DNA of 64,000 nucleotides from Elusimicrobiales bacterium (GCA_035353595.1 DAOPZW010000001.1:1099-65098); one strand, 5' to 3'; counted from the stretch's first letter, positions 1,592-21,426 are shown. A program made the numbers and translations. The notes: generated by a model not told the origin, from the letters alone.

Positions 1592-1771
1592 TCAGTTCAC
1601 GGCCTCCAGTTCCGCCAGCGTTTTCGTTATTTCGGCCGCCGCGGCCTTCATCAGGGCCAGCATTTCTTTTTTTTCAGGGGCGGAGCAGTCCTTGTAAAGC
1701 TCGGCGGCGCTCTTGAGGCTGGAGCATTTCGACCTCAGGTCGTGCAGCAGTTTGGAAGGGTCGGCGGTCAT
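1592..1771 (-). CDS. 59-aa helical His-containing protein (mini HPt-like), paralogue of 11955..12137
   Basis: Hand translation: MTADPSKLLHDLRSKCSSLKSAAELYKDCSAPEKKEMLALMKAAAAEITKTLAELEAVN. ATG at 1771 lies 9 nt after the regulator stop (1781) and is preceded by GGAG. Absent from the ORF track because it is under 60 aa. Aligns along its length with the 60-aa product of 11955..12137. Confidence 0.7.
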   Translation of the reverse strand: MTADPSKLLHDLRSKCSSLKSAAELYKDCSAPEKKEMLALMKAAAAEITKTLAELEAVN

Positions 1772-1780
1772 GCGGTCTCC

Positions 1781-3127
1781 TTAAATCTTGTCCCCGCTCT
1801 TTTTGAGCGTGGCGTAGAGCAGCCTGGTGGAGATCTTAAGGGCCGCCAGCGTTTTTGTGCGGCTGCCCTCGTTCTCGTCCAGGTTCCTTTTGATTATTTC
1901 CGCTGAAACTTTATCCAGCGCGGCTTCCAGGCCGTGGGCCAGCGCATAGGCGTAAAGGTCCTCGCCGGCGGGCCCCGCCGCGGGGCTGCCGGCGGGACCC
2001 GCCGCGCGGCCTTTCAAGTGCTTCTGCGCGGTCTCCAGGCTTACCCTGCCGCCGGGGCCGCCGGCCACCAGGTCCGTGAACTTCTTCAGTTCGCGGATAT
2101 TGCCGGGCCATGCATAGCTTCCCATGAATTCCCTGGCCTCGGGCGTGAAAGCCAGGCGCCGGCCGGTTTTGGTGAAGTGCAGCACCAGCGGGAAAATATC
2201 GCAGCGGCGGCGCGCCAGCGGCTTGAGCGTTATTGTATAGCCGTGCACGCGGTGGAACAGGTCGAAGCGCAGCTTGCCCTGCGCTATCAGCGCCTGCGGG
2301 TCTTCCAGCGTGGCGCTGATGATGCGGAACTCCGAGCGCTCCGGCTTTTCCGAGCCCAGCGGGTAGAAGGAGCGCTCCTCCAGCGCCTTGAGCAGCTTGG
2401 TCTGCATGTTCAGGCTCATGGCGCCTATCTCGTCGAGGAATAGCGTGCCTTTGTGCGCTTCCAGCAGGCGGCCTTTGCGCGCTTCGGAGGCGCCGGTGAA
2501 AGCGCCTTTCTTGTAGCCGAACAGTTCCGCTTCCAGCAGGTCTTCGGAATAGGCCGAGCAGTTGATGGCCACGAAAGCGCCGTCCCGCCCGGAATGCTCG
2601 TGCAGGATCTTGGCCAGAGAGGTTTTGCCGGTGCCGGAGGGGCCCAGGATCACGATGGGCAGCTCGGTGGGCGCGTATTTGAGCGCCTCGGCGGCCGCGG
2701 CCTTCGTTTCCGGGTCCTGGGTGATGAAAGCGTCCGCGAAGATGTCGGCGGCGCCGGCGGCTTTGCGGTGCTGCAGGAATTTCTGCAGGATGTCCGCCAC
2801 GTTGCGCTCTTCGTTGCCCTTGGCGTAGAAGTCGCCCGCGCCCGCCTCGTAGGCCTTGTCTATCATCTCGTCGGAATCGGAGCTGGACACCACCACGGCG
2901 TAGAGCCCTTTGTCCACGGCCCGCGGGATCGCCTTGAGGCCGGAGTAATCGTCGCCGGGGCCCAGCATCAGGTCGAAGAAGCCCAGGTCGTAGCGCCCGG
3001 TCTCCAGTTTTTTCAGGGCGGTCTTAAGGTCGCCCGCCAGGTCCACGTTGTGCGCGGCCAGCTGCGCGGCCATAACTTTCTGGGCCAGCTTGTCGTCTTC
3101 CACCACCAGGATATTCAGCTTTTCCAT
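1781..3127 (-). CDS. Sigma-54-dependent response regulator (REC + AAA+ + Fis-type HTH), here 'EBP1'
   Basis: REC domain ('LNILVVEDD', 'FFDLML'), Walker A 'GPSGTGKT', sigma-54 contact loop 'GAFTGA', 'WPGNIRELK', C-terminal HTH. The likely start is MEKLNILVVEDD at 3127, not the ORF-track start at 3157. Confidence 0.92.
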   Translation of the reverse strand: MEKLNILVVEDDKLAQKVMAAQLAAHNVDLAGDLKTALKKLETGRYDLGFFDLMLGPGDDYSGLKAIPRAVDKGLYAVVVSSSDSDEMIDKAYEAGAGDFYAKGNEERNVADILQKFLQHRKAAGAADIFADAFITQDPETKAAAAEALKYAPTELPIVILGPSGTGKTSLAKILHEHSGRDGAFVAINCSAYSEDLLEAELFGYKKGAFTGASEARKGRLLEAHKGTLFLDEIGAMSLNMQTKLLKALEERSFYPLGSEKPERSEFRIISATLEDPQALIAQGKLRFDLFHRVHGYTITLKPLARRRCDIFPLVLHFTKTGRRLAFTPEAREFMGSYAWPGNIRELKKFTDLVAGGPGGRVSLETAQKHLKGRAAGPAGSPAAGPAGEDLYAYALAHGLEAALDKVSAEIIKRNLDENEGSRTKTLAALKISTRLLYATLKKSGDKI

Positions 3128-3168: not shown

Positions 3169-3250
3169 AACCCTTGGAACTATTATACAGAAGTTGCGGG
3201 TATAGTGTATCTCCTATAGAAAAACGGTGGCGCGGGTGCCGCCTGTTTTT

Positions 3251-3266
3251 TGGCATAAAAATTGCT
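3251..3266 (+). promoter_or_regulatory. Sigma-54 (-24/-12) promoter TGGCAT-AAAAA-TTGCT
   Basis: Matches the TGGCAC-N5-TTGCW consensus with correct GG/GC spacing. Nearly identical to the sites at 4525, 57799 and 10397 (minus strand). Confidence 0.75.
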
Positions 3267-3310
3267 CTGCTGCGGGTACAATGACTATAATATGCCTTGA
3301 GAGAAAAACT

Positions 3311-4390
3311 ATGACAAGATCTTACCGCACAGGGCTGCACCACGTGACCGGGGCAAAAACTTCCGCCTCCGTAATGGGCGCCGTTAAAATGGGCCAGCTG
3401 GCCGCCATGAGCGAGGAGGAATTCGAGAAAAGCCTGCTCGAGATGGAGAGCGGCCGCACTTTCCAGCTGCTCAAGGCCTCCGGCGCCGTGAACCTGGCCG
3501 AATTCCCGTCGGCGCGCTACGCCGCGCGCAAATACGCGGGCTACGGTCTTAAACTTTCCGGCGGGGACCTGCCCGAACTGGCCGACGGCAAAGGCGACCT
3601 GGTGGCCCTGATCCAGGGAATCGGCCAGGAGAAGTTCGAAGCCTGCTTCCTTAAAGACGCCGCGATGAGCGACGTGGAGCGGGCCGAAGAGTGCGATATC
3701 AGCGTGGCCGACGCGCAGCGCCTGCGCGATTTTGTGAACCGGGCTTTCATCCAGGCCGAGTTCGAAGGCGCGGCCGAGGCGCCGGCGGCCAAAGTTTTCA
3801 GCGCGGTGGCCGGCATTGAACTTAATGACGGCGAGCCGCAGCTGGGCTTCTTCCACCGCGAGGTGTGGAAAGGCCGCTACAAGGTGGACGCCGAAAAGCT
3901 GGCGGCCCTGCTGCCGGGGCTGCCGCAGGCCGAGCAGAACCGCGTGGAGAAGCTGCTGCGCAAGCTGGAATTCGCCGACAAGCGCAAGACCACGCTGTAC
4001 CGCGCGCTGGAGATCCTGATCAGCGTCCAGGCCGAGTACCTGGCCACCGGCGAGGCCGGCCGCCGCCGTCCGCTGTCGCAGCGGACCATGGCTAAAAACC
4101 TGGATGTGGACGCCAGCGTGTTCAACCGCCTGATCTCCAATAAATCGATACAGATGCCCTGGGGCATGGAAGCGCCCATGAGCGCGCTGCTGCCCAGCCC
4201 CAAGAAAGTGAACATAGACCGGCTTTATGAGATCGCGTCCGAAAAACCCGAGCTCAGCGACGAGGCCCTGCGCACCGAACTGAAGACGCGCCACGGCATA
4301 GCCCTTTCGCGGCGCTCGGTGGCGCAATACCGCAAGGATCTCGGCCTGCAGTCCGGCGGCCGGCGCGCGCCCGAAGCGGCGCAAGAGTGA
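3311..4390 (+). CDS. Short, divergent sigma-54 (RpoN)-like factor
   Basis: Collinear with the RpoN C-terminal two-thirds: 'KRKTTLYRALEILISVQAEYL', HTH 'PLSQRTMAKNLDVDASVFNRLISNKSIQMPWG', RpoN box 'IALSRRSVAQYRKDLGL'. About 360 aa, against roughly 480 for typical RpoN. Start is uncertain (ATG 3281 or 3311). The ORF-track start at 3227 lies upstream of the predicted promoter. Confidence 0.75.
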   Translation: MTRSYRTGLHHVTGAKTSASVMGAVKMGQLAAMSEEEFEKSLLEMESGRTFQLLKASGAVNLAEFPSARYAARKYAGYGLKLSGGDLPELADGKGDLVALIQGIGQEKFEACFLKDAAMSDVERAEECDISVADAQRLRDFVNRAFIQAEFEGAAEAPAAKVFSAVAGIELNDGEPQLGFFHREVWKGRYKVDAEKLAALLPGLPQAEQNRVEKLLRKLEFADKRKTTLYRALEILISVQAEYLATGEAGRRRPLSQRTMAKNLDVDASVFNRLISNKSIQMPWGMEAPMSALLPSPKKVNIDRLYEIASEKPELSDEALRTELKTRHGIALSRRSVAQYRKDLGLQSGGRRAPEAAQE

Positions 4391-4409
4391 CCGGCCTTGA
4401 GCCGCCATA

Positions 4410-4647: not shown

Positions 4648-4740
4648 ATGGAATACCTGTTCGACATAGGATACTCATTTATTATCGCGGTCCTGGCCGT
4701 TGTCTATATTTCTTCCGTCCTGGTTGAGGGCGGCGTTTGA
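4648..4740 (+). CDS. Possible 30-aa hydrophobic micro-ORF in the leader of the DUF4097 operon
   Basis: Hand translation MEYLFDIGYSFIIAVLAVVYISSVLVEGGV. Lies between the sigma-54 promoter and the 4776 start. The RBS is weak (AAGAGAG directly abutting the ATG). Confidence 0.25.
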   Translation: MEYLFDIGYSFIIAVLAVVYISSVLVEGGV

Positions 4741-4775
4741 GCAGCTGGTTGATAAATCTTCAGAGGGAGAATAAA

Positions 4776-5597
4776 ATGAAAATACTGGCATCACTGGCGG
4801 TCATCTGCTTAGTTCCGGCAACAGCCGTTTATTGCGCGGCTCCGGAAATAAAAACTTTTCCCGCGGCGGGGATACAAAGTCTGCGCGTTGAAACCGGGGC
4901 CGGGGACATCCTTGTGGAGGGCGCGCCGGGGGACATACGGGTGGAGGTTACCGGCGAGGAGCCCGGCAAATGCCTGCTGACGATGAAGGCCGAAGCCGGT
5001 ATCTTTCTCGTCCGGGCCGAGGACGATCCCGCGGCCGCGACAAAACGCGGGTTCTGGCGCTCCCTTTTCGGCGGTTTTCACGGCGAGAATGGCTGCCAGG
5101 CGGGCTTTAAGGTTTCGGCGCCGGCGGCCCTGCCGCTCAGCGCGGCCAACGGCTCGGGCGAAATTTATATCAGCGGCCGCGACGGCGACGTGAGCGCCGG
5201 CAACGGCAGCGGCCATATCAAGGCGGAAAAAATCACGGGCAACCTGGACGTCAAGAACGGCTCGGGCGGCCTCTCCGGCGCCGGCTGCCCGAAAAGCCTG
5301 CGCGCGCGCACCGGTTCCGGCGGCATAACTTTCACCGGCCTTTGCGGGCCGGTCAACGCCGCCGCCGGCAGCGGCAATATCGAACTGAAATGGACGGGCG
5401 TTCCCCCCGCGGGCGAAGTGAGCGCGCGCACCGGTTCCGGGGATATCACCATGGTGTTCCCGCCTTCCGCCGCCATAGCCGCCAAGCTCGATAACGGTTC
5501 GGGCTCGATACGCAACGATTTCGTAAACGGCGGCAAATTTCCGGTGTCGGCCGGGGCCGGTTCCGGAAATATTTCCCTGCTCAAGGCCGTGAAGTAA
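4776..5597 (+). CDS. DUF4097-like beta-strand-repeat protein with signal peptide
   Basis: Starts MKILASLAVICLVPATAVYCA (signal-like). Reiterated 'GSG.I' strand repeats (NGSGEIYI, NGSGHIKA, TGSGGITF, AGSGNIEL, TGSGDITM, NGSGSIRN, AGSGNISL), typical of DUF4097 putative adhesins. Confidence 0.55.
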   Translation: MKILASLAVICLVPATAVYCAAPEIKTFPAAGIQSLRVETGAGDILVEGAPGDIRVEVTGEEPGKCLLTMKAEAGIFLVRAEDDPAAATKRGFWRSLFGGFHGENGCQAGFKVSAPAALPLSAANGSGEIYISGRDGDVSAGNGSGHIKAEKITGNLDVKNGSGGLSGAGCPKSLRARTGSGGITFTGLCGPVNAAAGSGNIELKWTGVPPAGEVSARTGSGDITMVFPPSAAIAAKLDNGSGSIRNDFVNGGKFPVSAGAGSGNISLLKAVK

Positions 5598-6039: not shown

Positions 6040-6067
6040 GCGCGGTTGAGGCGGGCGGCGCAAAAAG

Positions 6068-6099: not shown

Positions 6100-6117
6100 A
6101 TTTCGCCGGGTCTTGCG

Positions 6118-6648
<531 letters not shown>

Positions 6649-8540: not shown

Positions 8541-8835
8541 ATACTTATTGTACCAGATATTGTACCACTTGGCAAGGGGGGGGGGCTGTGGTGGCATTGT
8601 AAACCAGGATGAATAACTGTAATGCGGAATTAACAATAGCGGATGACAGGGATTCGCCGCGCGGTGTCGTGGAAGTAGAAGTTTTGCGACACTCGAAGAA
8701 AGAACGGGGAAATCCCACGACGAGAAAAGACAAGACGGGGGTGGACTTTTGCGACACTGAGGGAGGGTTGGGATAATTGGGGGAGTATTTTCGTGTCTGC
8801 CTATGGAAAATGGCGACTTCAGAAGAGGCTGCGGG

Positions 8836-9570
8836 TCAGAGGGAGAAACCAAAGAGCTTATCACTGAAGATGTTTAGGGAAACAAACAGATTCATATAGG
8901 CGTGAATTAAAATAACGGTTGAAAGTTTTTTCCCCTTCTCGTACGCAAAGCACATAAAAAAACCGATTAACATAGGATCGAGAAAGTCTTTGCCGTGTAA
9001 AAGTCCGAACAAGGCCCCATTAAGAAAAACAGCGGCAGCAAAGGGCAATTTCTTGCGCATGGCCACGTAAAGGCCCCTCCTCATAATGAATTCCTCTATC
9101 AAGGGCGAAAAGATGCAAAGGGCAAGGAGAAATAACGGTATTCTTGCTGGTGACGCCCGCAGAGCCGTTATAAACGAATCCGCAATCGCCGGGTTGTGTG
9201 TCTGGTCGTTCCAGAACAAAAGCATGTTCGACCACGGAAGGTCTATCGCCGCAAGAGCAATAGCAATAATCGCATCCGAAACATAAAGCAGGCACATTAA
9301 GACCACCCAATACTTCAAAGCCGGCTTGAATTCTGTTGTTATACCACTGAAATACTCACAAACATCTTTATACCCATAACCGAGTTTTTTAACATAGGGG
9401 TATATAGCAACCAAAGACCCAATACCCGTCATTACCAACTGTATTTCTTGATTCTTCAAGATAGGGAAGATCTTGCCCGGCAGGATTGCAAATAAAATAT
9501 AGGAAAGAAAGACTCTTCCAACCATCCATGTCAAATCCTTAAAATTCAAACTCTTTTTTTCAGTAATCAT
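8836..9570 (-). CDS. CPBP-family intramembrane glutamic endopeptidase (CAAX protease/bacteriocin-immunity type)
   Basis: Polytopic. Motif 1 'EEFIMRRGLY', motif 2 'FGLLHG', motif 3 'HAYMNL'. Confidence 0.75.
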   Translation of the reverse strand: MITEKKSLNFKDLTWMVGRVFLSYILFAILPGKIFPILKNQEIQLVMTGIGSLVAIYPYVKKLGYGYKDVCEYFSGITTEFKPALKYWVVLMCLLYVSDAIIAIALAAIDLPWSNMLLFWNDQTHNPAIADSFITALRASPARIPLFLLALCIFSPLIEEFIMRRGLYVAMRKKLPFAAAVFLNGALFGLLHGKDFLDPMLIGFFMCFAYEKGKKLSTVILIHAYMNLFVSLNIFSDKLFGFSL

Positions 9571-9696: not shown

Positions 9697-10347
9697 TTAT
9701 TTCCGAACAGGAGGATTAATCGGCAGGGGATGAAGCGCGGCACCGCCGCCACCGCCGCTGCCACCACCACCACTATTGCTCGGTGGTGTCGGAGTAGGTT
9801 CGTATTCCGAACAGACTTTGACTACTTGATCTATAAAATGGTCTACAACCCAGGTGGCGACCGTTGTGAGAATCCATGTAACACATTTACCTTTGGTAGC
9901 ACCATTAGCAGAAAGATTATAACGAATCGTGTTCAGTAGTATTTCATTGTCAATAGTGTTTAAGGTTTCCCCATCCTTCATTATTAGTATTTGGTTAGGC
10001 AATTTTAAAGTAATGATTACCCCTTCAATCTTTAGGTTTTTTTCAATGCTATCATCATGCAATCTTTGTGTATTGTATGAAGCTACAATATCTTTTATTA
10101 ACTGCTGTTTGCTTCTCATGGGGCTTTCTTTTGTGCCTGGCTCTACTTTGTTTGTTTCAAGGAAGGCGGATACGGTGGGAATTGGCAATGCCACCGTCTC
10201 GAAATCAGATAAAGCTTTCTTGAAGCCATCTAAAGATGATGTCAGATTGCCTCCCCTGTCAAAGTCAATTTGCATTTCCTCGGCCCTGGCCATCGAGGCC
10301 GCCGTCATCACCGCGAAGATCGCTATCAGTATGCTGGTCTTTTTCAT
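9697..10347 (-). CDS. Secreted protein with Gly-rich C-terminal tail, unknown function
   Basis: 216 aa. Signal peptide MKKTSILIAIFAVMTAASMARA. C-terminus 'PTPTPPSNSGGGGSGGGGG'. AGGAG RBS. Sits directly downstream of a sigma-54 promoter. Confidence 0.6.
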   Translation of the reverse strand: MKKTSILIAIFAVMTAASMARAEEMQIDFDRGGNLTSSLDGFKKALSDFETVALPIPTVSAFLETNKVEPGTKESPMRSKQQLIKDIVASYNTQRLHDDSIEKNLKIEGVIITLKLPNQILIMKDGETLNTIDNEILLNTIRYNLSANGATKGKCVTWILTTVATWVVDHFIDQVVKVCSEYEPTPTPPSNSGGGGSGGGGGAALHPLPINPPVRK

Positions 10348-10396: not shown

Positions 10397-10412
10397 GGCA
10401 ATATTTATGCCA
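10397..10412 (-). promoter_or_regulatory. Sigma-54 (-24/-12) promoter TGGCAT-AAATA-TTGCC (minus strand)
   Basis: The reverse complement of GGCAATATTTATGCCA matches the consensus spacing. Lies ~50 nt upstream of the ATG at 10347. Confidence 0.7.
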
Positions 10413-10525
10413 AACCCCTGATTCGCTGTGCCTGGGCGGGTGTAATATCATGGTTATCGTCGGAGGAGTTCTTGTTATGGCGCGGCTTCATAGGGAGCTT
10501 TCAAAACACGGGGGCAGGGAATTCA

Positions 10526-10561
10526 GTCCCGTACCGGAACGATATCGTTCCGGTATGGGAC
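10526..10561. promoter_or_regulatory. 36-bp palindrome GTCCCGTACCGGAACGAT|ATCGTTCCGGTATGGGAC
   Basis: 18-bp arms with 1 mismatch. Lies ~115-150 bp upstream of the minus-strand sigma-54 promoter and ~50 bp upstream of the EBP2 start. Candidate activator or operator site. Confidence 0.5.
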
Positions 10562-10609
10562 TATTCCGCCGGATTTTGGTATCATTCTGGATACCGAACA
10601 AGGGGACTT

Positions 10610-11953
10610 ATGCAAAAACTGAAGATACTGGTTATTGAGGATGACAGCCTGGCGCGCGAGGTGATGGCCGAGAACTTGGCCGGCCATGCGGTGGACTTTG
10701 CCGCGGATAAGGCCGCGGCCGAGCGCAGGCTGAAGGCCGGGGATTACGATATCTGTTTTGTGGATCTGCTTCTGGGCGTGGACGATGACTATTCCGGGCT
10801 GAAGTTGATTCCATTGGCGGCGGCTAAGAAAATATACACGGTGGTGATGTCGGGTTGCGATACCGAGGACACCATAAGCCGCGCCTATGCGCTGGGTTGC
10901 AGCGAGTTCTACGTCAAAGGCAATGAGGTGGCCAATATCCCGGCCATCATAGTCCGGTATCTGCAGGGTGACGGGGGGAAGAAAGCGCAGGAAATCTTCG
11001 CCGGGGATTTTATTACCCACGACCCAGAGACACGCGGGCTGGTGACGGAGGCGCTTAAATATGCCGCCACGAGCCTGCCGTTGATGATATTGGGGCCCTC
11101 GGGGACGGGCAAGACTACGCTAGCACAGTTATTGCACGACCATTCCGGCCGGGAAGGGGATTTTGTGGCGATGAACTGTTCGGCCTATACAGAGGATCTG
11201 CTGGAGGCCGAGCTGTTCGGCTATAAGCGCGGAGCGTTCACCGGCGCGCACGAAAACCGCAAAGGGAAACTGGCCCAGGCGGACAAGGGCACGCTGTTCC
11301 TGGACGAGATAGGCGCCATGAGCCAGAATATGCAGGTAAAGCTGCTCAAAGCCATAGAAGAGAAGCGTTTTTCTCCGCTGGGTTCGGACAAGCCCGAGTA
11401 TTCCGACTTCCGTGTGATGAGCGCGACGCTGGAGGACGTGCAGAAGCTGCTTGCCGAGAAACAACTGCGGTTCGATTTCTTCCAGCGCGTGCACGGCATG
11501 ACGATAACGCTTAAACCTCTGGCGCAGAGGAAATGCGACATTTTCCCTCTGATGCAGGCTTTGACCAGAAAGGGGAAGCGGCTGGCCTTCGAGCCCGAGG
11601 CCAGGGAGTACGTGCTGGCGCATAACTGGCCAGGCAATACGCGGGAGCTAAAACGCTTTGTGGAGCTAGTAAGCGCCGGCACGCATGGACAGGTAACGCT
11701 GGAGACCGCGCGCCGGCATATTACGCCCGCCGCGCCGGCTACGGCGGCCACCGGGGCGGCGGCGGGGGAATACTATGATTATGCGCTTAAACACGGCTTG
11801 GCGGCCGCGGTGGACCGCCTTACGGGGGAACTGGTAAACCGCAGCCTGGACGAGAACGGCGGCAAGAGGGCAGCAGTCCTGGCGCAGCTTAAGATCTCAA
11901 AGCGTCTTTTGTATGGTACGCTGTCGAAAACGCGCGGACCGGAGGGAAAATAA
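10610..11953 (+). CDS. Sigma-54-dependent response regulator, paralogue of 1781..3127 ('EBP2')
   Basis: Starts MQKLKILVIEDD (AAGGGGA RBS). 'GPSGTGKT', 'GAFTGA', 'WPGNTRELK', C-terminal HTH. Long identical runs with EBP1, for example DLLEAELFGYK, GTLFLDEIGAMS, ITLKPLA, CDIFPL. Confidence 0.92.
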   Translation: MQKLKILVIEDDSLAREVMAENLAGHAVDFAADKAAAERRLKAGDYDICFVDLLLGVDDDYSGLKLIPLAAAKKIYTVVMSGCDTEDTISRAYALGCSEFYVKGNEVANIPAIIVRYLQGDGGKKAQEIFAGDFITHDPETRGLVTEALKYAATSLPLMILGPSGTGKTTLAQLLHDHSGREGDFVAMNCSAYTEDLLEAELFGYKRGAFTGAHENRKGKLAQADKGTLFLDEIGAMSQNMQVKLLKAIEEKRFSPLGSDKPEYSDFRVMSATLEDVQKLLAEKQLRFDFFQRVHGMTITLKPLAQRKCDIFPLMQALTRKGKRLAFEPEAREYVLAHNWPGNTRELKRFVELVSAGTHGQVTLETARRHITPAAPATAATGAAAGEYYDYALKHGLAAAVDRLTGELVNRSLDENGGKRAAVLAQLKISKRLLYGTLSKTRGPEGK

Positions 11954-11954
11954 C

Positions 11955-12137
11955 ATGGCCGACATCGAGAAGATCTATCACAATATAAAGTCCAAGGCGG
12001 TAAACCTTAAAGCGGCGGCTGAGCAACTGGATAAATATCCGCAGGATAAGCGCGATAAATTTATACCGCTCATGCGTGAGGCGGCGCAGGACATTATAAG
12101 ACTGTTGGGTGAGCTGGAGGCGCAGCCCCGGAAGTAA
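11955..12137 (+). CDS. 60-aa helical His-containing protein (mini HPt-like), paralogue of 1592..1771
   Basis: MADIEKIYHNIKSKAVNLKAAAEQLDKYPQDKRDKFIPLMREAAQDIIRLLGELEAQPRK. ATG is 2 nt after the EBP2 stop, with GGAGGG upstream. Shares H-x-[LI]-[RK]-S-K-x3-L-K-x-AAE and the ...LM+-AA--I---L-ELEA pattern with the 1592..1771 product. Confidence 0.7.
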   Translation: MADIEKIYHNIKSKAVNLKAAAEQLDKYPQDKRDKFIPLMREAAQDIIRLLGELEAQPRK

Positions 12138-12156
12138 TTCCTGTTCGGCCCGGCGA

Positions 12157-14289
12157 TTAACTTTCTGACTTCACGCCCCAGGGGGCTTCTTTGGTAACCA
12201 CCCGCAGCCAGGGAAGGTGGGCGAATCTTTGCGGCGGGTGGCCGGTGGCCAGGGAAATATTGGTGTAACCTTTCTCTTTGAGCTCGACGGCTATGTTTTC
12301 ACCTTTTATGTTGTCGCCGAGCTCGGAATCTATATAAAGTGGAATATCTTTGGGGAAGTCGCCCAGGCTTGCCAAGAACTCGGCCGGGTTGGTAAACGCC
12401 TTGAGTTCGATGCCGTTTTCCTGGGCGGCCCATTCCCAGTTCATATGCGTGATGGCGTCGTCGTCCAGCAGGACCGCCCGCGTAGGCGGGGCGGCGGCTA
12501 CCGAAACAGGCACAAAACCGGACAAGCTTTTGGGGATCATCCGCACTTTAAGCCGGGCGCATTCCTCAATTATCCGTTTTTCTTCGCAGCGGCTGGTGAC
12601 CAGTATTGTCTGGCCGCAAAGGCCGAGCTCTTCGGCCAGGCCTAAGCCGGTTTCTTTATAGCCCGCAAGCTCATAGTCGAAAAGACAGACGGCGCTTTCG
12701 GCTTTTGCTGAATTGTCTTTAATCCAGGAGCGTAATTTATCAGGCTCGCAGAAATGGAGAATTTCAATATCATATTCTTTGACGCGGGCGGATTCGAACC
12801 AGCCGCGCCAGATCTGGTGGATGCCGGGGTCGTCATCAAGTACTACTACCGGGCGGCCGGGGGGAAGTGCTAGCGCTGACACGAAACCGGCCGGGGCCGC
12901 AGCCTTGGGCAGTTTTATGGTGACTGTGGTACCTTTGCCGGGCGTTGAAGCGATTGCCAGGCTGCCGCCCCAGCTTTCCGCGGTGGACCTGGCGTGGAAC
13001 AGGCCGAGGCCCGAGCCGCCGGCTTTGCCGTGGGTTTCGCCCTTTTGCCCGAGCTTTGTCAGGATCTCGGGCGGTATGCCTTTGCCTGTGTCCGATACCG
13101 TCAGAACAACTTTTTCATCTTCATGTGTTAACTTCACGTCCACCGCACCTTTATCCCCCAAGGCCTCGACGGCATTATTGACCAGGTTGGAGATCATGCG
13201 CCGGAATTCGATCGGCTGGAGCCTGGCGAACAGGCCGTAGGATTCCCGTGTTAATTCAAAATCAATATTGATGCCGGGCTTTGATCCGAATTGCAGGCGC
13301 TTTTCCGTGACGACCGGATCTATGAGGCTTGAGAGCAGGCGAACTTCCGGAGGCTCGCCGGCGACATGGCCGCCGGCGGCTCTGCCGGCTACAGCGCTTG
13401 GCTGCTGCCGGTTCTTTTCGAGAAGGTTGTTGGCTATGTCGCGTATACGATTGACCGCGTGGCGCACCATAATGCGCTGCTTCTCTGGGAGTTGTTCTGT
13501 GTTCTTGAGCGCGGCGTCCAGAGCTACCAGAGGGGAGCGGATATCGTGGGCGACCTGGGCGGCCATATTGGAAACGGCCTTGCTTACGGCAAGCTCGCTT
13601 TCAAGGCGCGCGGCCAGCCCCAGCGCGTCGCTCATGCGGTTGGTCATCTGGGCGAAAGGCACGCCTATAATATCCGCCGGGAGAGTTTCTATATGGCACT
13701 TTATCGAATCGCGGATAATGTCGCTCCGGCCGGACCCGGCTATGGCGTTTATCTCGTTGATGGAGCGCTCGATGGCCAGCAGCGTCCGCATAGCGCCCAG
13801 GTTGGAAATTATCAGCAGCCCCAGGAAGAAGAATACCACGGTGATGAACAGAATGTAATTCTGCCCGAACGCCACGGCGTTAACGTCCACAAGGTCTATG
13901 ACATATTCAAGCCGGCCAAGCTCCGCGCCGTTAGAGATGAATGGGACATTGTGTGTTATCTGGGCGCGAGACCTGTCGTAAAGGTTGCCGACTATGGCCT
14001 CTTTAAAGATCCACCGGCTGCCCTCGAACCCTACCGGGTGGAAAGTGATGCGCTTGATGTTGTCGTTCTTGATGCGCCACATGATGCGTTGCGTCTCGAA
14101 GACGTCACCATCAAGAAAAGCCTTCTCGAAGTAAGCTGCGTTCTGACGCATGGCGGTCAGCAGCTTGTCGTTCGCCACACGCACTGCGGAGAAGGCCGAG
14201 AACGCCTGCCAGAAAGCGACAAAGACCAGCACCGACACTACGTAGTGCCGCCAATTGTAGGCAAGAATGCGGGCAAAAAGTCTTACCAT
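12157..14289 (-). CDS. Hybrid sensor histidine kinase (2 TM, HisKA, HATPase_c, two C-terminal receiver domains)
   Basis: H-box 'AHDIRSPLVAL'. N/G boxes 'NLVNNAVEA', 'DTGKGIPPE', 'GGSGLGLFHA'. REC1 'VVVLDDDPG...CLFDYEL...ILVTS...MIPK'. REC2 'AVLLDDDA...LYIDSEL...SLATG...VVTK'. Confidence 0.88.
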   Translation of the reverse strand: MVRLFARILAYNWRHYVVSVLVFVAFWQAFSAFSAVRVANDKLLTAMRQNAAYFEKAFLDGDVFETQRIMWRIKNDNIKRITFHPVGFEGSRWIFKEAIVGNLYDRSRAQITHNVPFISNGAELGRLEYVIDLVDVNAVAFGQNYILFITVVFFFLGLLIISNLGAMRTLLAIERSINEINAIAGSGRSDIIRDSIKCHIETLPADIIGVPFAQMTNRMSDALGLAARLESELAVSKAVSNMAAQVAHDIRSPLVALDAALKNTEQLPEKQRIMVRHAVNRIRDIANNLLEKNRQQPSAVAGRAAGGHVAGEPPEVRLLSSLIDPVVTEKRLQFGSKPGINIDFELTRESYGLFARLQPIEFRRMISNLVNNAVEALGDKGAVDVKLTHEDEKVVLTVSDTGKGIPPEILTKLGQKGETHGKAGGSGLGLFHARSTAESWGGSLAIASTPGKGTTVTIKLPKAAAPAGFVSALALPPGRPVVVLDDDPGIHQIWRGWFESARVKEYDIEILHFCEPDKLRSWIKDNSAKAESAVCLFDYELAGYKETGLGLAEELGLCGQTILVTSRCEEKRIIEECARLKVRMIPKSLSGFVPVSVAAAPPTRAVLLDDDAITHMNWEWAAQENGIELKAFTNPAEFLASLGDFPKDIPLYIDSELGDNIKGENIAVELKEKGYTNISLATGHPPQRFAHLPWLRVVTKEAPWGVKSES

Positions 14290-15696
14290 CTAAAATTCGC
14301 CACCTCGGGGTATTCCATTAGTTCGCTACCGACAACAAGATTTTTTATTTCCCTGGGATAATAAACTGTGTCATTCCCCTGATAAAGAGCAAGGGCGGCA
14401 TAATGCTTGGAAAGTTTATTCGCGATTTCCTCAGCCAGCCGCCGGCGCGGTTCCCGGGAGTCTTCATTTAAAAGCTCTGTATATTCAGCATTCAGGCCCG
14501 CAACATTATAATCCAGATAACTGCCTTTTCCAGTGAATGATGAAAGGAAGTCCTGCTGCTCTGCCCGCATAGCGCTGAGCATTATCACCAATAAGTCGTA
14601 TGCACGGGGTCTTTTACTGAGAGATGCCGCGAGTGTGTTTGCGTCATAGTTCACAACCTTGATATTTAGGCCTGTCCTCTTGTGGAGGATAGAGGCAAAT
14701 TCGGTAATCTGCGGAATATTATCCTTCCGCCAATTTGCAAGAATTATTGGTCTGGCGAAACTATGCTTTCCGCAGAGCGAACGGTCCTGGTAAGGAAGCC
14801 CGGCCCTGGCCCCTGGGATCCCCAACGGAAAAACCGTCTGAATATTATAAAAGGACTGTTTTTGGGGGAAGTAAGCCCGCCGGAAAGTATCAACGTCAAT
14901 GCAGTTGTACAGGACCTCTCTGATTTTTTCATCCGCTACGTTTATCAGCAGAACTTCAGATTTTAGCCCTAAATTCTCAAAACTCAGGAAGCCTTTCCTG
15001 ACATGCTCCGGGACATCGAACGGCGCGATACGGTTAAAATCTTTTACGGCTTTATTGTGCAGATTGGGATCGTTCCCCCCCTTTATAGTCGTAAAAGGCG
15101 ATTTTATTGTACCCGTGCGCCACAGGCTCCTTACGCACGAGAGTTATTTTGTCTTTGGACATTTCCGAGATCCTATACGCTCCCAGACCGAGCTGGTACG
15201 CCCCATTGTCAATGGCGGGCGCGTTTTCGTATTGAGAAAGGAAATCTAGGTAGCCACTCCGGCCCCGCTTGAAAGTTACAGCGCAACAGCTGCCGGTGTT
15301 GGTTACCGTGGCGGTTGGATCGTAGCTGGCGGTGACAGCACGTAAATAATTGTTGAAATACTCCGCGGAGAACGGGCGAGAAGTGTCGAAGTGCAGGTTG
15401 GTATCCGGGCACAGAACGTACTGTGAAGAGTCGGCGCTCCTGCTCCAGTTGCTCAGCACTTTCGTCGTGTAATTTTGCCCGTCATCTTTCCGGAAGACCG
15501 GTTCATGGGTCTGCTTCAGGATATAGTAAACACTGTTTGTAATAGTCTTCGTCGATATTCTGTCGGGTAGCGCAGAAAGCAGTGCTCCCCATACTTTTGC
15601 GTCGCTCCGGGCAACGGATAACCCCCACAGGGCCGCACACAGGACGGCAATCGCGGCGAATGCGAGTCTCGCTTTTTTATGTGGCCAGATCATCAT
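14283..15696 (-). pseudogene. Family-5 (peptide/nickel-type) periplasmic solute-binding protein, split by a frameshift in a C7 run
   Basis: ORFs 15052..15696 and 14283..14825 are the N- and C-terminal parts of one SBP. Removing one base from the C7 homopolymer (15075..15081) gives an uninterrupted ~470-aa frame, verified by hand from 15074 to 14826 with no stop. The stop overlaps the kinase start by 7 nt. Confidence 0.75.
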
Positions 15697-15717: not shown

Positions 15718-17154
15718 CTAGCGCGCCGGCGGTTTTTCAGCTTCACTGCAGGGGGCAAGCAGACATTTATTTGCGCGCTCCTGGAGGTTTTCGTAGTCCA
15801 CACCGCTAGCCAGAGCTTTTTCATATTCTGCACAGGCCAGCTCCCGCTCACCGAGGAGATCGCGGCAATTTCCGATATAAAAATGCGACAAGGCATCCCA
15901 GACCGGCTTCAACGAACCAGCCTGCCCCAGGATGGCGTTATTGAATTCTTCGATGGCTTTTTGATGCTTTCCGGCGGCCATATGTACGCGCCCAAGAATA
16001 TGCCAGGAATACTCGTCCGTGGGTTTGTCTGCCAAAGCGCGGAGAAGTCCTGATTCCGCCTTATCATAAATCCCGGCGTTAAAATAGCTTTCTGCCAGAT
16101 CCTTTTCCACCTGCGCTCTGGCATAGGCCTCATCGCCGCTTTTATCGCCGAACACGTACCCGCCTCCGTTCACGGGCGGCAGTGAAAAGCCACTGAACTC
16201 CGCTGCGGAAGGATATGCCTCCGTCCCTCCAGGCTGCAGGATGAAGAATTCCCGGTCCGTCCCGACAACAGAGGACTTGACCTTGATGTTTTCTCCGATG
16301 AGGCAGATAAGCCGTTTTGGATAAAGGTTGCCGAAAAACCACTCCGGGCTGACATCACCTATGCCCGCCGTCTCCCTGACCCGCCTGGCAAGGGCGCTTT
16401 CCGGTTCAAATTTGAATCTTCTGGCTAGGGTAGGGTCAACTGGGACCCAACCAAAAGGCGGAAGAAAGACCTCCGCCCATTGATGGCCGCCGTTTTTTAA
16501 CCAGTTACAGGTCACCGTCCTCGCGGGGATGCCCTGTGAGCGGCATAGAGAGATAAAAACAGCGCAGAATTCACCGCAATCGCCTTTCAACCTCTTAAGA
16601 GACTTCGATGCTCCGCGAGATTTAAAGTCTGGATATTCATAGTGGAGGTTATCCACTACCCACATAAAAATCTTTTTAGCGATAAAATATGGGTTGCGCT
16701 CCCCTCCGGCTATCTCTTGCGCTTTTGCCATAATCTCACCGGAGATATCAAGCCAGCCCTCGGATATCGTATAGCGGACATACTCGGCAGAATTTTTGTC
16801 GCACCAGGAAACACGCTTCGGGTCTATCTTAATAGACACTCCCTCGAACTCCAGGTCGAAATCATAGTAAAAGGTCGCTTGGCCGCTACCGGCCAGGCTC
16901 CCGGCTTTTGTATTCCAGATAAGGATCCGATTGCCGTTGGGCTGGTCGTCGATGATAGCCGAAGGCTGCGGCGAGAAAGTGAGATTCTCAACCCGCTGTC
17001 CCATATGGTTCATCGGTAGGGAAAAGAAAAGGGTTATCTCACCCACGCCAGTTGCTGACAATTTTAGATTGTCCACGAAATACCAATATCTACCATGAAC
17101 ACGGCAGCGTTCAGGCGCGATTTGGATGGGAGCTGTGCGGGATTCTTCAGGCAT
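15718..17154 (-). CDS. Transglutaminase-like (Cys-His-Asp) enzyme with C-terminal TPR repeats
   Basis: 'GDCGEFCAVFISLCRSQGIPARTV...GGHQWAEVFLPPFGWVPVDPT' is the transglutaminase-core triad context. The C-terminal ~120 aa is TPR-like. No signal peptide. Confidence 0.75.
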   Translation of the reverse strand: MPEESRTAPIQIAPERCRVHGRYWYFVDNLKLSATGVGEITLFFSLPMNHMGQRVENLTFSPQPSAIIDDQPNGNRILIWNTKAGSLAGSGQATFYYDFDLEFEGVSIKIDPKRVSWCDKNSAEYVRYTISEGWLDISGEIMAKAQEIAGGERNPYFIAKKIFMWVVDNLHYEYPDFKSRGASKSLKRLKGDCGEFCAVFISLCRSQGIPARTVTCNWLKNGGHQWAEVFLPPFGWVPVDPTLARRFKFEPESALARRVRETAGIGDVSPEWFFGNLYPKRLICLIGENIKVKSSVVGTDREFFILQPGGTEAYPSAAEFSGFSLPPVNGGGYVFGDKSGDEAYARAQVEKDLAESYFNAGIYDKAESGLLRALADKPTDEYSWHILGRVHMAAGKHQKAIEEFNNAILGQAGSLKPVWDALSHFYIGNCRDLLGERELACAEYEKALASGVDYENLQERANKCLLAPCSEAEKPPAR

Positions 17155-17165
17155 GTGTAAATGGA

Positions 17166-18053
17166 CTATGTTGAGAGTGCGGCCAGAGTTTTCCGACCCT
17201 TAGCTCTTAAACTGAAAAGATACTTGCACATGGCGCAAGGCGCTGAATGCTGTGGGGAGAACTTGGGGGAGGGAATCTTAAAATACTCTATCAATTCCTG
17301 GAAAGTTTTTTTGCGCATGATAGAATAGAACTCGCTGCCGAGATGTCCTGCCAACGTCGGATGCACATATCCTCTCCCATCCCCGTCCAATGCAAGATGG
17401 GAACAACATGTGGTAAAACCTTCGCCGGGAAGATAAATCAGTTTATTGTTGTTTGGGCATTTTTTCTGCAGGACGTCCGCGTCAAAGCTCGGGTAAATGT
17501 GCTGTAGTTTGTTCTTTTGCGCCGCACCTATAGGGTGTATCGGCTGAACACCGACCGGGAAGTCCCCCATCTTTTTAAGATCTTTGATAAGCAGAAGGTC
17601 CATTGGGGTCTGGACCGTCATCAAGACATTAAAGCTTCTGCCGCTCCGCCTGCATGCAGAATAAAGATTTGACAGGTTCGCCTCTTTCTGGAACGCTTTA
17701 TGGAAGCGGTCGTATGATAACTGGACGCCGGAAAGCGCCCTAAACTCGTTTAGGACCGTTAAGGCGGCCGCTTCGGTCCTGGCGAAGTGCCCGTTAGTGG
17801 TTATCTTTATTTGCGGGAAGGGCGCGTATTTGATTCCGGAGAGAATCGTGTTTATCTTGTCTATGTACAATGTCGGTTCACCGCCGACAAAAAGCAGCGA
17901 CTGGAACTGATATGTATTTATTGCTCTGATTAGAAGATGGATCTCTTCTTCGGTAAGACTTACCTGGCGCTTTTCGCTGACCCCGCAATGCGCACAGTTG
18001 AAATTACATCTATATCCTACAAGTATACTGCAGCTGGTCGGCCTATTTCGCAT
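17166..18053 (-). CDS. Radical SAM enzyme (short, with C-terminal Cys cluster)
   Basis: 'YRCNFNCAHC' is the CxxxCxxC motif. 'GGEPTL' SAM-binding motif. C-terminal Cys residues ('TTCCSH', 'CAMC') suggest an auxiliary cluster. Confidence 0.8.
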   Translation of the reverse strand: MRNRPTSCSILVGYRCNFNCAHCGVSEKRQVSLTEEEIHLLIRAINTYQFQSLLFVGGEPTLYIDKINTILSGIKYAPFPQIKITTNGHFARTEAAALTVLNEFRALSGVQLSYDRFHKAFQKEANLSNLYSACRRSGRSFNVLMTVQTPMDLLLIKDLKKMGDFPVGVQPIHPIGAAQKNKLQHIYPSFDADVLQKKCPNNNKLIYLPGEGFTTCCSHLALDGDGRGYVHPTLAGHLGSEFYSIMRKKTFQELIEYFKIPSPKFSPQHSAPCAMCKYLFSLRAKGRKTLAALST

Positions 18054-18134
18054 AAAATAGCTGGCATTACCAGGATATCGTATAAAAAGACGGCGGGGTC
18101 AGCAAGCATGGGACAGTTGATGTCTAGACCTGAG

Positions 18135-18338
18135 TTATCCGACTTTTTTAGTATCCCCGGCAGCATCAAATACCGGAGATTCACACACCAGAACCCCGGT
18201 ATCAGAAATCTTGGCAACCGAAAATAATTTCGTTCTTTCGCCTATAGAAAGCGTCTGAACATACTGCATAGCCTGGGTAGTGGAAAAAATCCCTACGGAA
18301 ACCAGGAAGGCCGCTATCACTTTATCTTTGTTCGTCAT
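18135..18338 (-). CDS. 67-aa secreted small protein, candidate radical-SAM substrate
   Basis: AAGGGGA RBS 6 nt before the ATG. MTNKDKVIAAFLVSVGIFSTTQA|MQYV... has a signal or leader with an AxA-like site. The predicted mature ~44 aa has one Cys. It is the first gene of the operon, directly upstream of the rSAM gene. Confidence 0.5.
   Translation of the reverse strand: MTNKDKVIAAFLVSVGIFSTTQAMQYVQTLSIGERTKLFSVAKISDTGVLVCESPVFDAAGDTKKVG

Positions 18339-18994: not shown

Positions 18995-21426
<2,432 letters not shown>

What the first reader, a model, noticed from the sequence alone, without database searches (positions are those of the whole stretch)
10610..14289. Complete multistep phosphorelay candidate: hybrid kinase with two receiver domains, mini-HPt (copy 2) and sigma-54 regulator
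The kinase at 12157..14289 ends in two receiver domains. Both have recognisable acidic pockets and phospho-acceptor Asp residues (VLDDD...FDYEL, and LLDDD...IDSEL).

Hybrid kinases cannot phosphorylate a response regulator directly and need an HPt intermediate. The only candidate nearby is the 60-aa His protein at 11955..12137, which is wedged between the regulator and the convergent kinase gene.

This gives a functional rationale for the small-protein family. It also predicts the relay order: kinase His, then REC Asp, then mini-HPt His, then EBP2 Asp.
Basis: inference. Interest (0 to 1): 0.6.

Follow-up and report, generated by a model that had tools for sequence, protein, structure and literature searches.

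The report
Stand-alone mini kinase-dimerisation domain in phosphorelay cassette
A 60-residue protein, encoded between a sigma-54 activator gene and a histidine kinase gene whose product carries two receiver domains, is a free-standing copy of the kinase's histidine-bearing helical hairpin and probably carries phosphate from the kinase to the activator, which would make it the smallest histidine phosphotransfer protein yet proposed.

Summary
**Observation: confirmed.**
- The 710-aa kinase (12157..14289, -) ends in two receiver folds. The model has pLDDT 91.5 and best matches the tandem receivers of PleD. D-D, Asp, Thr and Lys sit at the canonical positions in both.
- The 60-aa gene (11955..12137) is real. 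It has its own ribosome-binding site, dN/dS of 0.08-0.36 and an invariant His9.

**Interpretation: partly right.**
- The small protein is not an HPt domain. It has no PF01627 match and only two helices.
- It is a stand-alone HisKA-type DHp hairpin. hhalign against the DHp of the associated kinases gives P = 4e-5 with the histidines aligned. Of 62 family members, 19 hit CreC, 13 hit ChpT and 8 hit NtrB models.
- The family has at least 324 clusters, all 49-144 aa. Every named or located member is from Elusimicrobia. In every locus with upstream DNA the gene directly follows an EBP of this clade. A Sigma54_DBD-only gene and a kinase-REC(-REC) gene are often adjacent.

**Best reading (confidence 0.5).** A Spo0B/ChpT-like relay without the CA-like domain: H248, then a kinase receiver Asp (probably D654), then His9, then EBP2 D52.

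No phosphotransfer is shown. A role as a phosphatase or modulator remains open. This is a new variant of a known kind.

The parts
10610..11953 (+). EBP2, an NtrC-type sigma-54 enhancer-binding response regulator: receiver (D52), AAA+ domain with GAFTGA, and a C-terminal Fis-like HTH
   Evidence: Pfam Response_reg 35.8 bits and Sigma54_activat 182.5 bits. Residue positions. It is 59% identical to EBP1. The HTH is read from the sequence, not tested.
11955..12137 (+). Small protein 2 (60 aa): a stand-alone DHp-like helical hairpin, with helices at residues 2-25 and 30-56. The invariant His9 is at 11979..11981, in the motif H-N-I-K-S-K.
   Evidence: AF2 pLDDT 92.5. His invariant in 23 close relatives and at least 90% conserved in 62 diverse members. 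hhalign against the kinase DHp gives P = 4e-5. NCBIfam hits to histidine kinase and ChpT models. RBS and coupling to EBP2. dN/dS 0.36 for the one copy-2 pair with unsaturated dS, 0.08-0.31 for copy-1 orthologues.
12157..14289 (-). Hybrid sensor histidine kinase (710 aa). It has two hydrophobic segments (about residues 17-36 and 143-168) around a loop of about 105 aa, followed by DHp, CA, REC1 and REC2.
13405..13587 (-). Kinase DHp domain (about residues 235-295). The H-box is HDIRSPL; H248 is at 13546..13548.
   Evidence: HisKA 21 bits over residues 240-292. NCBIfam kinase models align from residue 238. Coordinates.
12901..13218 (-). Kinase catalytic ATP-binding domain (residues 358-463)
   Evidence: HATPase_c 88.8 bits over residues 360-463.
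12499..12852 (-). REC1 (about residues 480-597), with D485/D486, D538 (12676..12678), T565 and K587
   Evidence: AF2 model and Foldseek. Positions. Conservation.
12181..12483 (-). REC2 (about residues 603-703), with D609/D610, D654 (12328..12330), T682 and K700. Helix 4 is very short and there is no helix 5. It carries an L-A-T-G-H motif after beta4.
   Evidence: REC2 is the only receiver kept in the kinases of L007, L016 and L018.
10397..10412 (-). Sigma-54-type -24/-12 element, TGGCATAAATATTGCC, about 50 nt upstream of the 216-aa secreted-protein gene 9697..10347 (-). It is the probable target promoter of EBP2.
   Evidence: The total count of such sites in the window is not above chance. The assignment rests on position and on three sister sites sharing TGGCAT-N5-TTGC.
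10525..10562 (.). A 38-bp palindrome (19-nt arms, 95% complementary), 113 bp upstream of the -24/-12 element. It is the probable EBP2 binding site.
   Evidence: The 24-bp core is unique in the window, with 0 expected by chance.
1592..1771 (-). Small protein 1 (59 aa), a paralogue 36% identical to small protein 2, with the motif H-D-L-R-S-K-C
   Evidence: Weak ChpT DHp hit, E = 0.017. RBS GGAG.
1781..3127 (-). EBP1, a paralogue of EBP2, directly upstream of small protein 1
3227..4390 (+). Sigma-54-like protein with only the Sigma54_DBD domain (residues 238-380), divergent from EBP1. Its start codon is uncertain.
   Evidence: Adjacent to the EBP-small pair in most related loci.

Best explanation
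The small protein is a free-standing HisKA-type DHp hairpin. It probably dimerises into a four-helix bundle and acts as a minimal Spo0B/ChpT-like histidine phosphotransferase dedicated to the EBP it is co-translated with.

Proposed flow:
1. A periplasmic signal is sensed, possibly with the SBP-like protein encoded just upstream of the kinase.
2. The kinase autophosphorylates on H248.
3. Phosphate passes within the molecule to a receiver Asp. REC2 D654 is most likely, with REC1 D538 as a second acceptor or sink.
4. Phosphate passes to His9 of the small protein.
5. Phosphate passes to D52 of EBP2.
6. The EBP2 AAA+ domain assembles at the palindrome 10525-10562 and activates the sigma-54-type promoter at 10397-10412.

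**Shown by results here:** the folds, the catalytic residues, the DHp homology, the conservation of the His, the gene linkage and the promoter-like elements.

**Inferred:** dimerisation, every phosphotransfer step, which receiver relays, and the signal.
For: **The small protein is a DHp homologue**
- The model is a two-helix hairpin with pLDDT 92.5.
- A profile-profile match to the DHp of the 13 associated kinases covers 45 columns across both helices, with His on His, P = 4e-5.
- Of 62 family members scanned singly, 19 hit CreC (best 2e-6), 8 hit NtrB (1.8e-5) and 18 hits go to the two ChpT models (best 9e-4).
- ChpT (4fmt, 4fpp) and ZraS DHp domains are among the top six PDB sequence hits, aligned across the His-bearing helix and the start of helix 2.
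- HK853 and SrrB DHp domains are among the top Foldseek hits.
- PGAP names three members 'histidine kinase'.

**The His matters**
- It is invariant in 23 close relatives and at least 90% conserved in 62 diverse members.
- H+1 is Asp or Asn and H+4 is Ser, as in ChpT (HDFIS) and in the neighbouring kinase (HDIRS).
- Conservation is highest in helix 1, the loop and the start of helix 2. From general knowledge, this is the receiver-docking surface of DHp domains.

**The kinase is a hybrid**
- It has two receivers that look competent.
- REC2 lacks helix 5, has a vestigial helix 4, and carries an L-A-T-G-[HYF] motif. This resembles the FATGUY motif that PMC9981736 associates with intermediary receivers such as CckA-Rec, which engages ChpT.

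**Linkage**
- The small gene directly follows an EBP of this clade in every locus with upstream DNA. Stop and start codons overlap or lie within 10 nt.
- A kinase with the same REC2 (with or without REC1) lies within the fetched flanks in 18 of 45 loci. This includes distant loci at 45-55% identity.

**Other points**
- No canonical HPt occurs in the window.
- The whole cassette sits on a 12.5-kb island of lower GC, flanked by 483-bp repeats. It therefore appears to travel as a unit.
- There is a precedent for the idea. HmrB of Caulobacter is a 108-aa hairpin proposed, but not shown, to be an atypical dimeric HPT beside a hybrid kinase (PMC11481889).
Against: - No phosphotransfer, dimerisation or protein contact was tested. 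The structure tool folds single chains only.
- The hhalign probability is only about 70%, and all PDB and Pfam sequence hits are individually non-significant.
- Twenty-seven of 45 loci show no kinase within about 6 kb, so the small gene is bound to the EBP rather than to the kinase.
- An isolated DHp can also act as a phosphatase. From general knowledge, EnvZ domain A does this.
- Some hybrid kinases phosphorylate their regulators directly.
- Only 64 kb of the genome is visible, so a canonical HPt could lie elsewhere.
- The window has two EBP-small pairs but only one kinase.
- A few family members lack the His (for example P0053).
Confidence: 0.5

Rival explanations
1. DHp-only phosphatase or phosphate sink. 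The kinase phosphorylates EBP2 directly from H248, and its own receivers are regulatory. The co-translated small DHp binds the EBP2 receiver and accelerates its dephosphorylation, or takes phosphate back onto His9, which sets the off-rate of the activator.
For: The same DHp homology applies. The H-[DN]-x-x-S arrangement resembles the HisKA phosphatase motif E/D-x-x-T/N next to the His. From general knowledge, EnvZ domain A alone dephosphorylates OmpR~P. The small gene is linked to the EBP in all loci but to a kinase in only 18 of 45. It is coupled to the EBP through stop-start proximity.
Against: - A conserved His is not strictly required for HisKA phosphatase activity, yet it is at least 90% conserved here.
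- Every kinase found beside the module is a hybrid with REC2, which is unexplained if the receivers play no part in output.
- REC2 has the reduced form expected of a passive intermediary.
Confidence: 0.2
2. Non-catalytic modulator. The hairpin binds the kinase DHp to form an inactive heterodimer, or binds the EBP or the Sigma54_DBD-only protein as an adaptor or anti-activator, with no phosphorylation of His9.
For: Small helical hairpins that regulate kinases are known; from general knowledge, Sda of Bacillus is one. In distant loci the gene sits between the EBP and the Sigma54_DBD gene in one operon, which would fit a bridging role.
Against: An H-box-like motif (H, D/N at +1, S at +4, hydrophobic residues at +2 and +9) retained across 62 members at 22-40% identity points to chemistry at the His rather than simple binding.
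Confidence: 0.12
3. A canonical HPt protein or domain encoded elsewhere in the genome serves the hybrid kinase. The small protein has some other role tied to the EBP.
For: Only 64 kb of the genome is visible. HPt genes are often unlinked to their kinases.
Against: - The cassette lies on an island that carries the kinase, the EBP and the small DHp together.
- The same set recurs in distant Elusimicrobia.
- A 2015 census lists 0.00 in its second percentage column, beside 100.00 for two-component proteins, for the one Elusimicrobia genome it covered (PMC4558063). That column was read as the share of genomes with phosphorelay or HPt proteins; the header was not checked. It is a single, different genome, so the evidence is weak.
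Confidence: 0.1
4. Split kinase. The CA domain of the kinase phosphorylates His9 of the free DHp in trans, and the small protein then phosphorylates EBP2 without any receiver intermediate.
For: From general knowledge, the isolated EnvZ DHp is phosphorylated in trans by the isolated CA domain. The small protein's H-box is close to that of the kinase.
Against: The kinase has its own intact DHp tethered to the CA domain. This reading does not explain why the receivers are conserved.
Confidence: 0.08

Closest known systems
ChpT (Caulobacter and Brucella) and Spo0B (Bacillus): dimeric DHp-type histidine phosphotransferases
   Same: Both have a helical hairpin with the phosphorylatable His in helix 1 and an H-D-x-x-S motif (ChpT: HDFIS). 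They act between an intermediary receiver and a terminal response regulator. ChpT models are hit by 18 family-member matches, and ChpT structures are among the top PDB sequence hits, aligned across the His-bearing helix and the start of helix 2.
   Different: ChpT (about 225 aa) and Spo0B (about 190 aa) carry a C-terminal CA-like alpha/beta domain. This protein is the hairpin alone (57-70 aa). It is always fused in an operon to a sigma-54 EBP and has been seen only in Elusimicrobia. Its activity is untested.
HmrB of Caulobacter crescentus (PMC11481889)
   Same: A small all-helical hairpin protein encoded beside a hybrid histidine kinase. AF2-multimer predicts a dimer forming a four-helix bundle. 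It has been proposed as an atypical HPT.
   Different: HmrB is 108 aa. No sequence relationship was tested here. It is not linked to an EBP. Its own phosphotransfer role is also only proposed.
HPt domain proteins (Pfam PF01627: Ypd1, LuxU, ShpA, ArcB-C)
   Same: The proposed role is the same: a His carrier between two receiver domains.
   Different: HPt is a monomeric four-helix bundle of about 110-170 aa with an HxxKG-type motif. This protein has two helices, no PF01627 match and an H-box of HisKA type.
Isolated DHp ('domain A') of EnvZ
   Same: It is about 67 aa, forms a hairpin, and has the His about 8 residues into helix 1. From general knowledge, it forms a dimer on its own, can be phosphorylated in trans, transfers phosphate to OmpR, and acts as a phosphatase.
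   Different: EnvZ domain A is a laboratory fragment of a full kinase. This protein is a natural gene.
TorS/TorT/TorR and LuxQ/LuxP/LuxU/LuxO relays
   Same: A hybrid kinase is paired with a periplasmic binding protein. In the Lux case, the relay ends at a sigma-54 EBP (LuxO).
   Different: Those relays use canonical HPt domains (TorS C-terminus, LuxU). The SBP link here is inferred from gene order only.

Membership tests
HPt domain (Pfam PF01627) | Significant match to the HPt profile, or an HxxKG-type motif | tested here: not met
   No PF01627 hit for the protein or for any of 23 relatives, even at E up to 10. The motif is H-N-I-K-S-K, not HxxKG followed by a Gly.
HPt domain (Pfam PF01627) | Monomeric four-helix bundle of about 110 aa or more | tested here: not met
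   60 aa with two helices (residues 2-25 and 30-56), pLDDT 92.5.
HPt domain (Pfam PF01627) | Conserved phosphorylatable His on a helix | tested here: met
   His9 is invariant in alignment A1 and at least 90% conserved in A2. Solvent exposure was not measured.
DHp-type dimeric histidine phosphotransferase (Spo0B/ChpT class) | Helical hairpin homologous to the HisKA DHp, with the His in helix 1 | tested here: met
   hhalign P = 4e-5 against the kinase DHp alignment. Histidine kinase and ChpT models are hit by many members. Hairpin model.
DHp-type dimeric histidine phosphotransferase (Spo0B/ChpT class) | C-terminal CA-like alpha/beta domain | tested here: not met
   The protein ends at residue 60. 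The 60 listed family representatives are 49-144 aa.
DHp-type dimeric histidine phosphotransferase (Spo0B/ChpT class) | Homodimeric four-helix bundle | not testable with these tools
   Structure prediction folds single chains only. SEC-MALS or a multimer prediction is needed.
DHp-type dimeric histidine phosphotransferase (Spo0B/ChpT class) | Accepts phosphate from a receiver Asp and passes it to another receiver | not testable with these tools
   A biochemical assay is required.
Hybrid histidine kinase | H-box/DHp plus a HATPase_c catalytic domain | tested here: met
   HATPase_c scores 88.8 bits. HisKA scores 21 bits, below the cut-off, but the H-box is HDIRSPL, and full-length kinase models (AtoS, ZraS, PhoR) align over residues 238-463.
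Hybrid histidine kinase | Fused receiver domain with the D-D, D, T/S and K catalytic set | tested here: met
   There are two such domains. Evidence is the AF2 model, Foldseek matches to PleD, Sln1 and CheY receivers, and residue positions. Pfam Response_reg alone is below threshold at 15 bits.
Intermediary receiver with FATGUY motif (PFxFATG[G/Y]; PMC9981736) | The motif at beta4 and the following loop, with a reduced alpha4 | tested here: inconclusive
   REC2 has I-S-L-A-T-G-H; homologues have [LM]-x-T-[GA]-[HYF]. Helix 4 has 4 residues and helix 5 is absent. The leading P-F is absent. This is a resemblance only.
NtrC-type bacterial enhancer-binding protein | Receiver plus sigma-54-interaction AAA+ domain with GAFTGA | tested here: met
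   Response_reg 35.8 bits and Sigma54_activat 182.5 bits. GAFTGA at residue 208.

The most novel reading that the evidence does not exclude
A natural 57-70-aa DHp hairpin is the smallest histidine phosphotransferase. It is the relay element of a self-contained, horizontally mobile regulatory cassette specific to Elusimicrobia. The cassette consists of a hybrid kinase with REC-REC, the mini-DHp, a REC-AAA+ EBP, and a sigma-54 paralogue reduced to its DNA-binding domain. In a phylum that may lack canonical HPt domains, the cassette replaces them.
Probability: 0.35. Interest if true: 0.7.

Novelty: new variant of a known kind. Interest (0 to 1): 0.55.

Why it matters
- Phosphorelays are usually recognised by HPt domains. 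Censuses based on PF01627 would score these genomes as having hybrid kinases with no relay partner.
- A natural DHp-only protein that shuttles phosphate would show that the hairpin alone is sufficient. It would set the minimal size for a histidine phosphotransferase.
- It would also give an easily synthesised 60-residue scaffold for studying or engineering kinase-receiver specificity.
- The family is absent from Pfam and NCBIfam. It marks an uncharacterised sigma-54 regulatory module, with a Sigma54_DBD-only partner, that has multiplied within Elusimicrobia: up to five copies in one genome.

Tried and rejected
- **Pfam on the small protein and 23 relatives.** Only noise (ApoA-II and similar); HisKA in 2 members at E = 0.07.
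- **Profile against PDB sequences.** Nothing significant. The ChpT and ZraS hits at E = 0.3-0.5 are supporting evidence only.
- **Foldseek of the hairpin.** No hit at E of 0.001 or better, because hairpins are ubiquitous.
- **hhalign of the close-relative alignment against the single kinase sequence.** E = 0.018 only. It improved once both sides were family alignments.
- **The search for related loci with the diverse alignment.** A sub-alignment worked, but its pattern (..SKC..L[KM]) biases the result towards copy-1-like members. The Elusimicrobia-only result from that scan is therefore not proof of restriction. The names agree with it.
- **Regex scan for HxxKG-type motifs.** Three hits, all in implausible frames or contexts.
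- **Literature search for 'DHp-only' and similar terms.** Returned unrelated papers.
- **The weak kinase hit in L040.** It is not a recognisable kinase ORF.
- **The small ORF as a remnant of a truncated kinase gene.** Considered and rejected. It has its own RBS, a conserved length, dN/dS well below 1, and at least 324 clusters.
- **The alternative start at 11913 (74 aa).** Considered and rejected, because all homologues begin at MAD.EK.

Full report
**1. What is in the sequence**

The window comes from an Elusimicrobiales metagenome-assembled genome. The small protein is identical to an NCBI entry of that origin.

*EBP2.* At 10610..11953 (+) lies a 447-aa NtrC-type enhancer-binding protein.
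- Response_reg scores 35.8 bits and Sigma54_activat scores 182.5 bits.
- GAFTGA is at residue 208. The receiver residues are E10-D11-D12, D52, S81 and K103.

*Small gene.* The EBP2 stop codon is one base before the ATG of a 60-codon gene, 11955..12137.
- GGAGGG lies inside the last EBP2 codons.

*Kinase.* Nineteen bases after the small gene's stop, a 710-aa kinase gene ends on the other strand (12157..14289).
- HATPase_c scores 88.8 bits.
- The H-box is HDIRSPL with H248.
- There are two hydrophobic segments around a loop of about 105 aa.

**2. The two receiver domains are real**

Pfam sees almost nothing in the last 240 residues. Response_reg scores 15 bits.

Sixteen homologues at 37-74% identity conserve the same pattern twice: VVLDDD / LFDYEL / LVTS / IPK and LLDDD / YIDSEL / LATG / V..K.

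An AlphaFold2 model of residues 464-710, built on that alignment, has mean pLDDT 91.5 and two alternating beta/alpha domains.

Foldseek places it with the tandem receivers of PleD and 3luf (E = 2e-5 to 3e-5, probability 1.00) and with single receivers of Sln1, CheY, DivK and Spo0A.

Mapping sequence onto the model puts each residue at its canonical position:

| Position | REC1 | REC2 |
|---|---|---|
| After beta1 | D485/D486 | D609/D610 |
| End of beta3 | D538 | D654 |
| End of beta4 | T565 | T682 |
| After beta5 | K587 | K700 |

REC2 is reduced. It has a four-residue helix 4 and no helix 5.

It also carries L-A-T-G-H after beta4; homologues have [LM]-x-T-[GA]-[HYF]. This resembles the FATGUY motif that Brüderlin et al. 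associate with intermediary receivers such as CckA-Rec, MrrA and SdrG (PMC9981736). It is a resemblance, not a match, because the leading P-F is missing.

Kinases beside copy-1-type loci in L007, L016 and L018 go straight from the CA domain to REC2. REC2 is therefore the constant receiver.

**3. The small protein is a stand-alone DHp, not an HPt**

*A real gene.*
- It has a paralogue at 1592..1771 (-), 10 nt after EBP1.
- Twenty-two close homologues are all 59-66 aa.
- An exhaustive profile search finds 60 representatives at the 50% cluster level, all 49-144 aa.
- A profile search of the 90% clusters finds 324.
- dN/dS against orthologues is 0.08-0.36.
- His9 is invariant among close relatives and at least 90% conserved overall.
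- The family consensus is L-x-x-L-I-H-D-V-N-S-K-C-x-S-L-K-x-A-A-x-L-L ... P-E-E-x-R-E-L-L-x-L-M.
- The model is a two-helix hairpin, residues 2-25 and 30-56, with pLDDT 92.5.

*Not an HPt.* There is no PF01627 match, no four-helix monomer and no HxxKG motif.

*Several independent results tie it to the HisKA-type DHp.*
- hhalign of the family against an alignment of the DHp regions of the 13 kinases found next to these genes gives P = 4e-5 over 45 columns spanning both helices. His aligns to His, and the loop P-E-x-x-R aligns as well.
- When the 62 members are scanned one by one against NCBIfam, 19 hit CreC (best 2e-6), 13 hit Caulobacter ChpT, 8 hit NtrB (1.8e-5) and 5 hit Brucella/Rhizobium ChpT. 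Single hits go to ZraS, VanS, ChvG, TorS, PhoR, CseC and CpxA.
- ChpT structures and ZraS are among the six best PDB sequence hits, aligned across the His-bearing helix and the start of helix 2. Each has E = 0.3-0.5.
- In a six-frame ORF set of all fetched loci, the weak tail of the family HMM is dominated by the H-box regions of the neighbouring kinases.
- HK853 and SrrB DHp domains appear among the top, non-significant Foldseek hits.
- PGAP calls three members 'HAMP domain-containing histidine kinase'.

The motif H-D/N-x-x-S is shared with ChpT (HDFIS) and with the adjacent kinase (HDIRS).

**4. Genomic association**

- All 36 loci recovered from one-genome-per-species contigs are from Elusimicrobia or unclassified MAGs. 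One genome has five copies.
- In every locus with upstream DNA, the small gene directly follows an EBP of the EBP1/EBP2 clade. Starts and stops often overlap by 4 or 8 nt.
- A protein with only a Sigma54_DBD domain is adjacent in most loci. It is divergent from the EBP in copy-1-type loci. In distant loci it lies immediately downstream of the small gene in the same operon.
- A kinase with the same DHp-CA-REC1-REC2 (or REC2-only) layout lies within the fetched flanks in 18 of 45 loci. This includes three distant loci at 45-55% identity.
- The other 27 loci show none within about 6 kb.

The EBP link is therefore obligatory. The kinase link is frequent but not universal.

**5. Output side**

- A TGGCAT-N5-TTGC element at 10397-10412 (-) lies about 50 nt upstream of a gene for a secreted 216-aa protein (9697..10347).
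- A 38-bp palindrome at 10525-10562 lies 113 bp further upstream.
- Three sister -24/-12 elements, at 3251, 4525 and 57799, each have an ATTTTCA..TGAAAAT-type palindrome about 85-105 bp upstream. These are likely EBP1 sites.
- The overall count of -24/-12-like matches is not above chance. These assignments rest on position and on shared form.

**6. Mechanism**

The best reading is a four-step relay in which the mini-DHp plays the part of Spo0B or ChpT without their CA-like domain: H248, then a kinase receiver Asp (D654 favoured), then His9, then EBP2 D52.

What favours this reading:
- the conserved His in an H-box context;
- the hybrid nature of every linked kinase;
- the reduced, intermediary-like REC2;
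- the absence of any HPt in the window;
- the location of the cassette on an island (section 7).

What is missing is any test of dimerisation or phosphotransfer.

The main rival is a DHp-only phosphatase or phosphate sink for EBP~P. This fits the stronger linkage to the EBP and the H-D-x-x-S motif. Further rivals are a non-catalytic modulator, an unlinked canonical HPt, and trans-phosphorylation by the kinase CA domain.

**7. Context noticed on the way**

- The EBP2/small/kinase genes sit in a 12.5-kb segment of lower GC (0.50-0.54, against 0.59-0.65 in the flanks). It is bounded by 483-bp direct repeats, 98.3% identical, of the 3' end of the monomeric isocitrate dehydrogenase gene. This is the signature of an element integrated into icd.
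- The segment also carries a YoeB/YefM-like pair, a CPBP protease, a transglutaminase-TPR protein, a radical SAM enzyme and a 67-aa candidate precursor peptide. Syntenic loci add SBP_bac_5, YcaO and small peptides. This suggests control of a peptide-modification cluster.

**8. Novelty**

Dimeric DHp-type phosphotransferases are known (Spo0B, ChpT). A hairpin-only candidate, HmrB, has been proposed from structure prediction and genetics (PMC11481889).

What is new here:
- a large, conserved family, unannotated in Pfam and NCBIfam, of 57-70-aa proteins with demonstrable HisKA/ChpT homology;
- obligatory pairing of these proteins with a sigma-54 EBP;
- their membership of a module that includes a Sigma54_DBD-only protein.

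I rate it a new variant of a known kind, of moderate interest. The function remains to be shown.

Noticed in passing
window 6056-6538 and 18995-19477: 483-bp direct repeats, 98.3% identical, consisting of the 3' end of the monomeric isocitrate dehydrogenase gene. The intact gene is 19057..21333 (-) and the fragment ORF is 6118..6582 (-). They bracket about 12.5 kb of lower GC (0.50-0.54) that contains the whole EBP2/small/kinase cassette. This looks like an element integrated into icd. No integrase or tRNA was seen.
   Followed up: partly
window 3227-4390 (+); also L043 7206-8261, L044 7200-8255, L045 7171-8217: A sigma-54-like protein of about 350-387 aa with only the Sigma54_DBD domain (residues 238-380). 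It has no detectable activator-interacting or core-binding domain. It is conserved next to the EBP-small pair across Elusimicrobia, and its function is unknown. In the window a TGGCAT-N5-TTGC site (3251-3266) lies at its 5' end, so its start codon is uncertain.
   Followed up: partly
window 3147-3168, 4407-4444, 57679-57714 (palindromes); 3251-3266, 4525-4540, 57799-57814 (-24/-12 sites): Three ATTTTCA..TGAAAAT-type palindromes, each about 85-105 bp upstream of a TGGCAT-N5-TTGC element. This is a likely EBP1 regulon. It includes the sigma-54-like gene and the DUF4097 gene 4737..5597.
   Followed up: partly
window 14283-14825 and 15052-15696 (-): Two ORFs in different frames that together span about 470 codons, directly upstream of the kinase and overlapping its start. 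Syntenic loci have one SBP_bac_5 gene of 480-504 aa at this position. This is a possible frameshift, pseudogene or assembly error. Pfam finds nothing in either half.
   Followed up: partly
window 15718-18338 (-): A transglutaminase-core plus TPR protein (15718..17154), a radical SAM enzyme (17166..18053) and a 67-aa ORF (18135..18338) lie upstream in the same orientation as the kinase. Related loci carry radical SAM, YcaO and 60-71-aa ORFs. This suggests a modified-peptide (RiPP-like) cluster under control of this system.
   Followed up: no
window 8038-8412 (-) and upstream, overlapping ORF 8298-8864: A YoeB/Txe-like toxin ORF (ending ...VLRMWTHYE), preceded by a Phd/YefM-like antitoxin sequence (MTTLTTSQARAQLFHLVD...), on the island. 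This was read from the sequence only.
   Followed up: no
L031 5645-6198; L026 11043-11306 (-): L031 gives two overlapping hits of the small-DHp family HMM in different frames, possibly tandem copies or a frameshift. L026 has a second EBP-small pair flanking the same kinase. One groundwater genome (JACQWW01) has five copies. The module multiplies within genomes.
   Followed up: no
L044 8301-8750 (+): In one distant locus a single-domain receiver protein (149 aa, Response_reg 92 bits) follows the Sigma54_DBD gene. It may be an extra relay or sink component.
   Followed up: no
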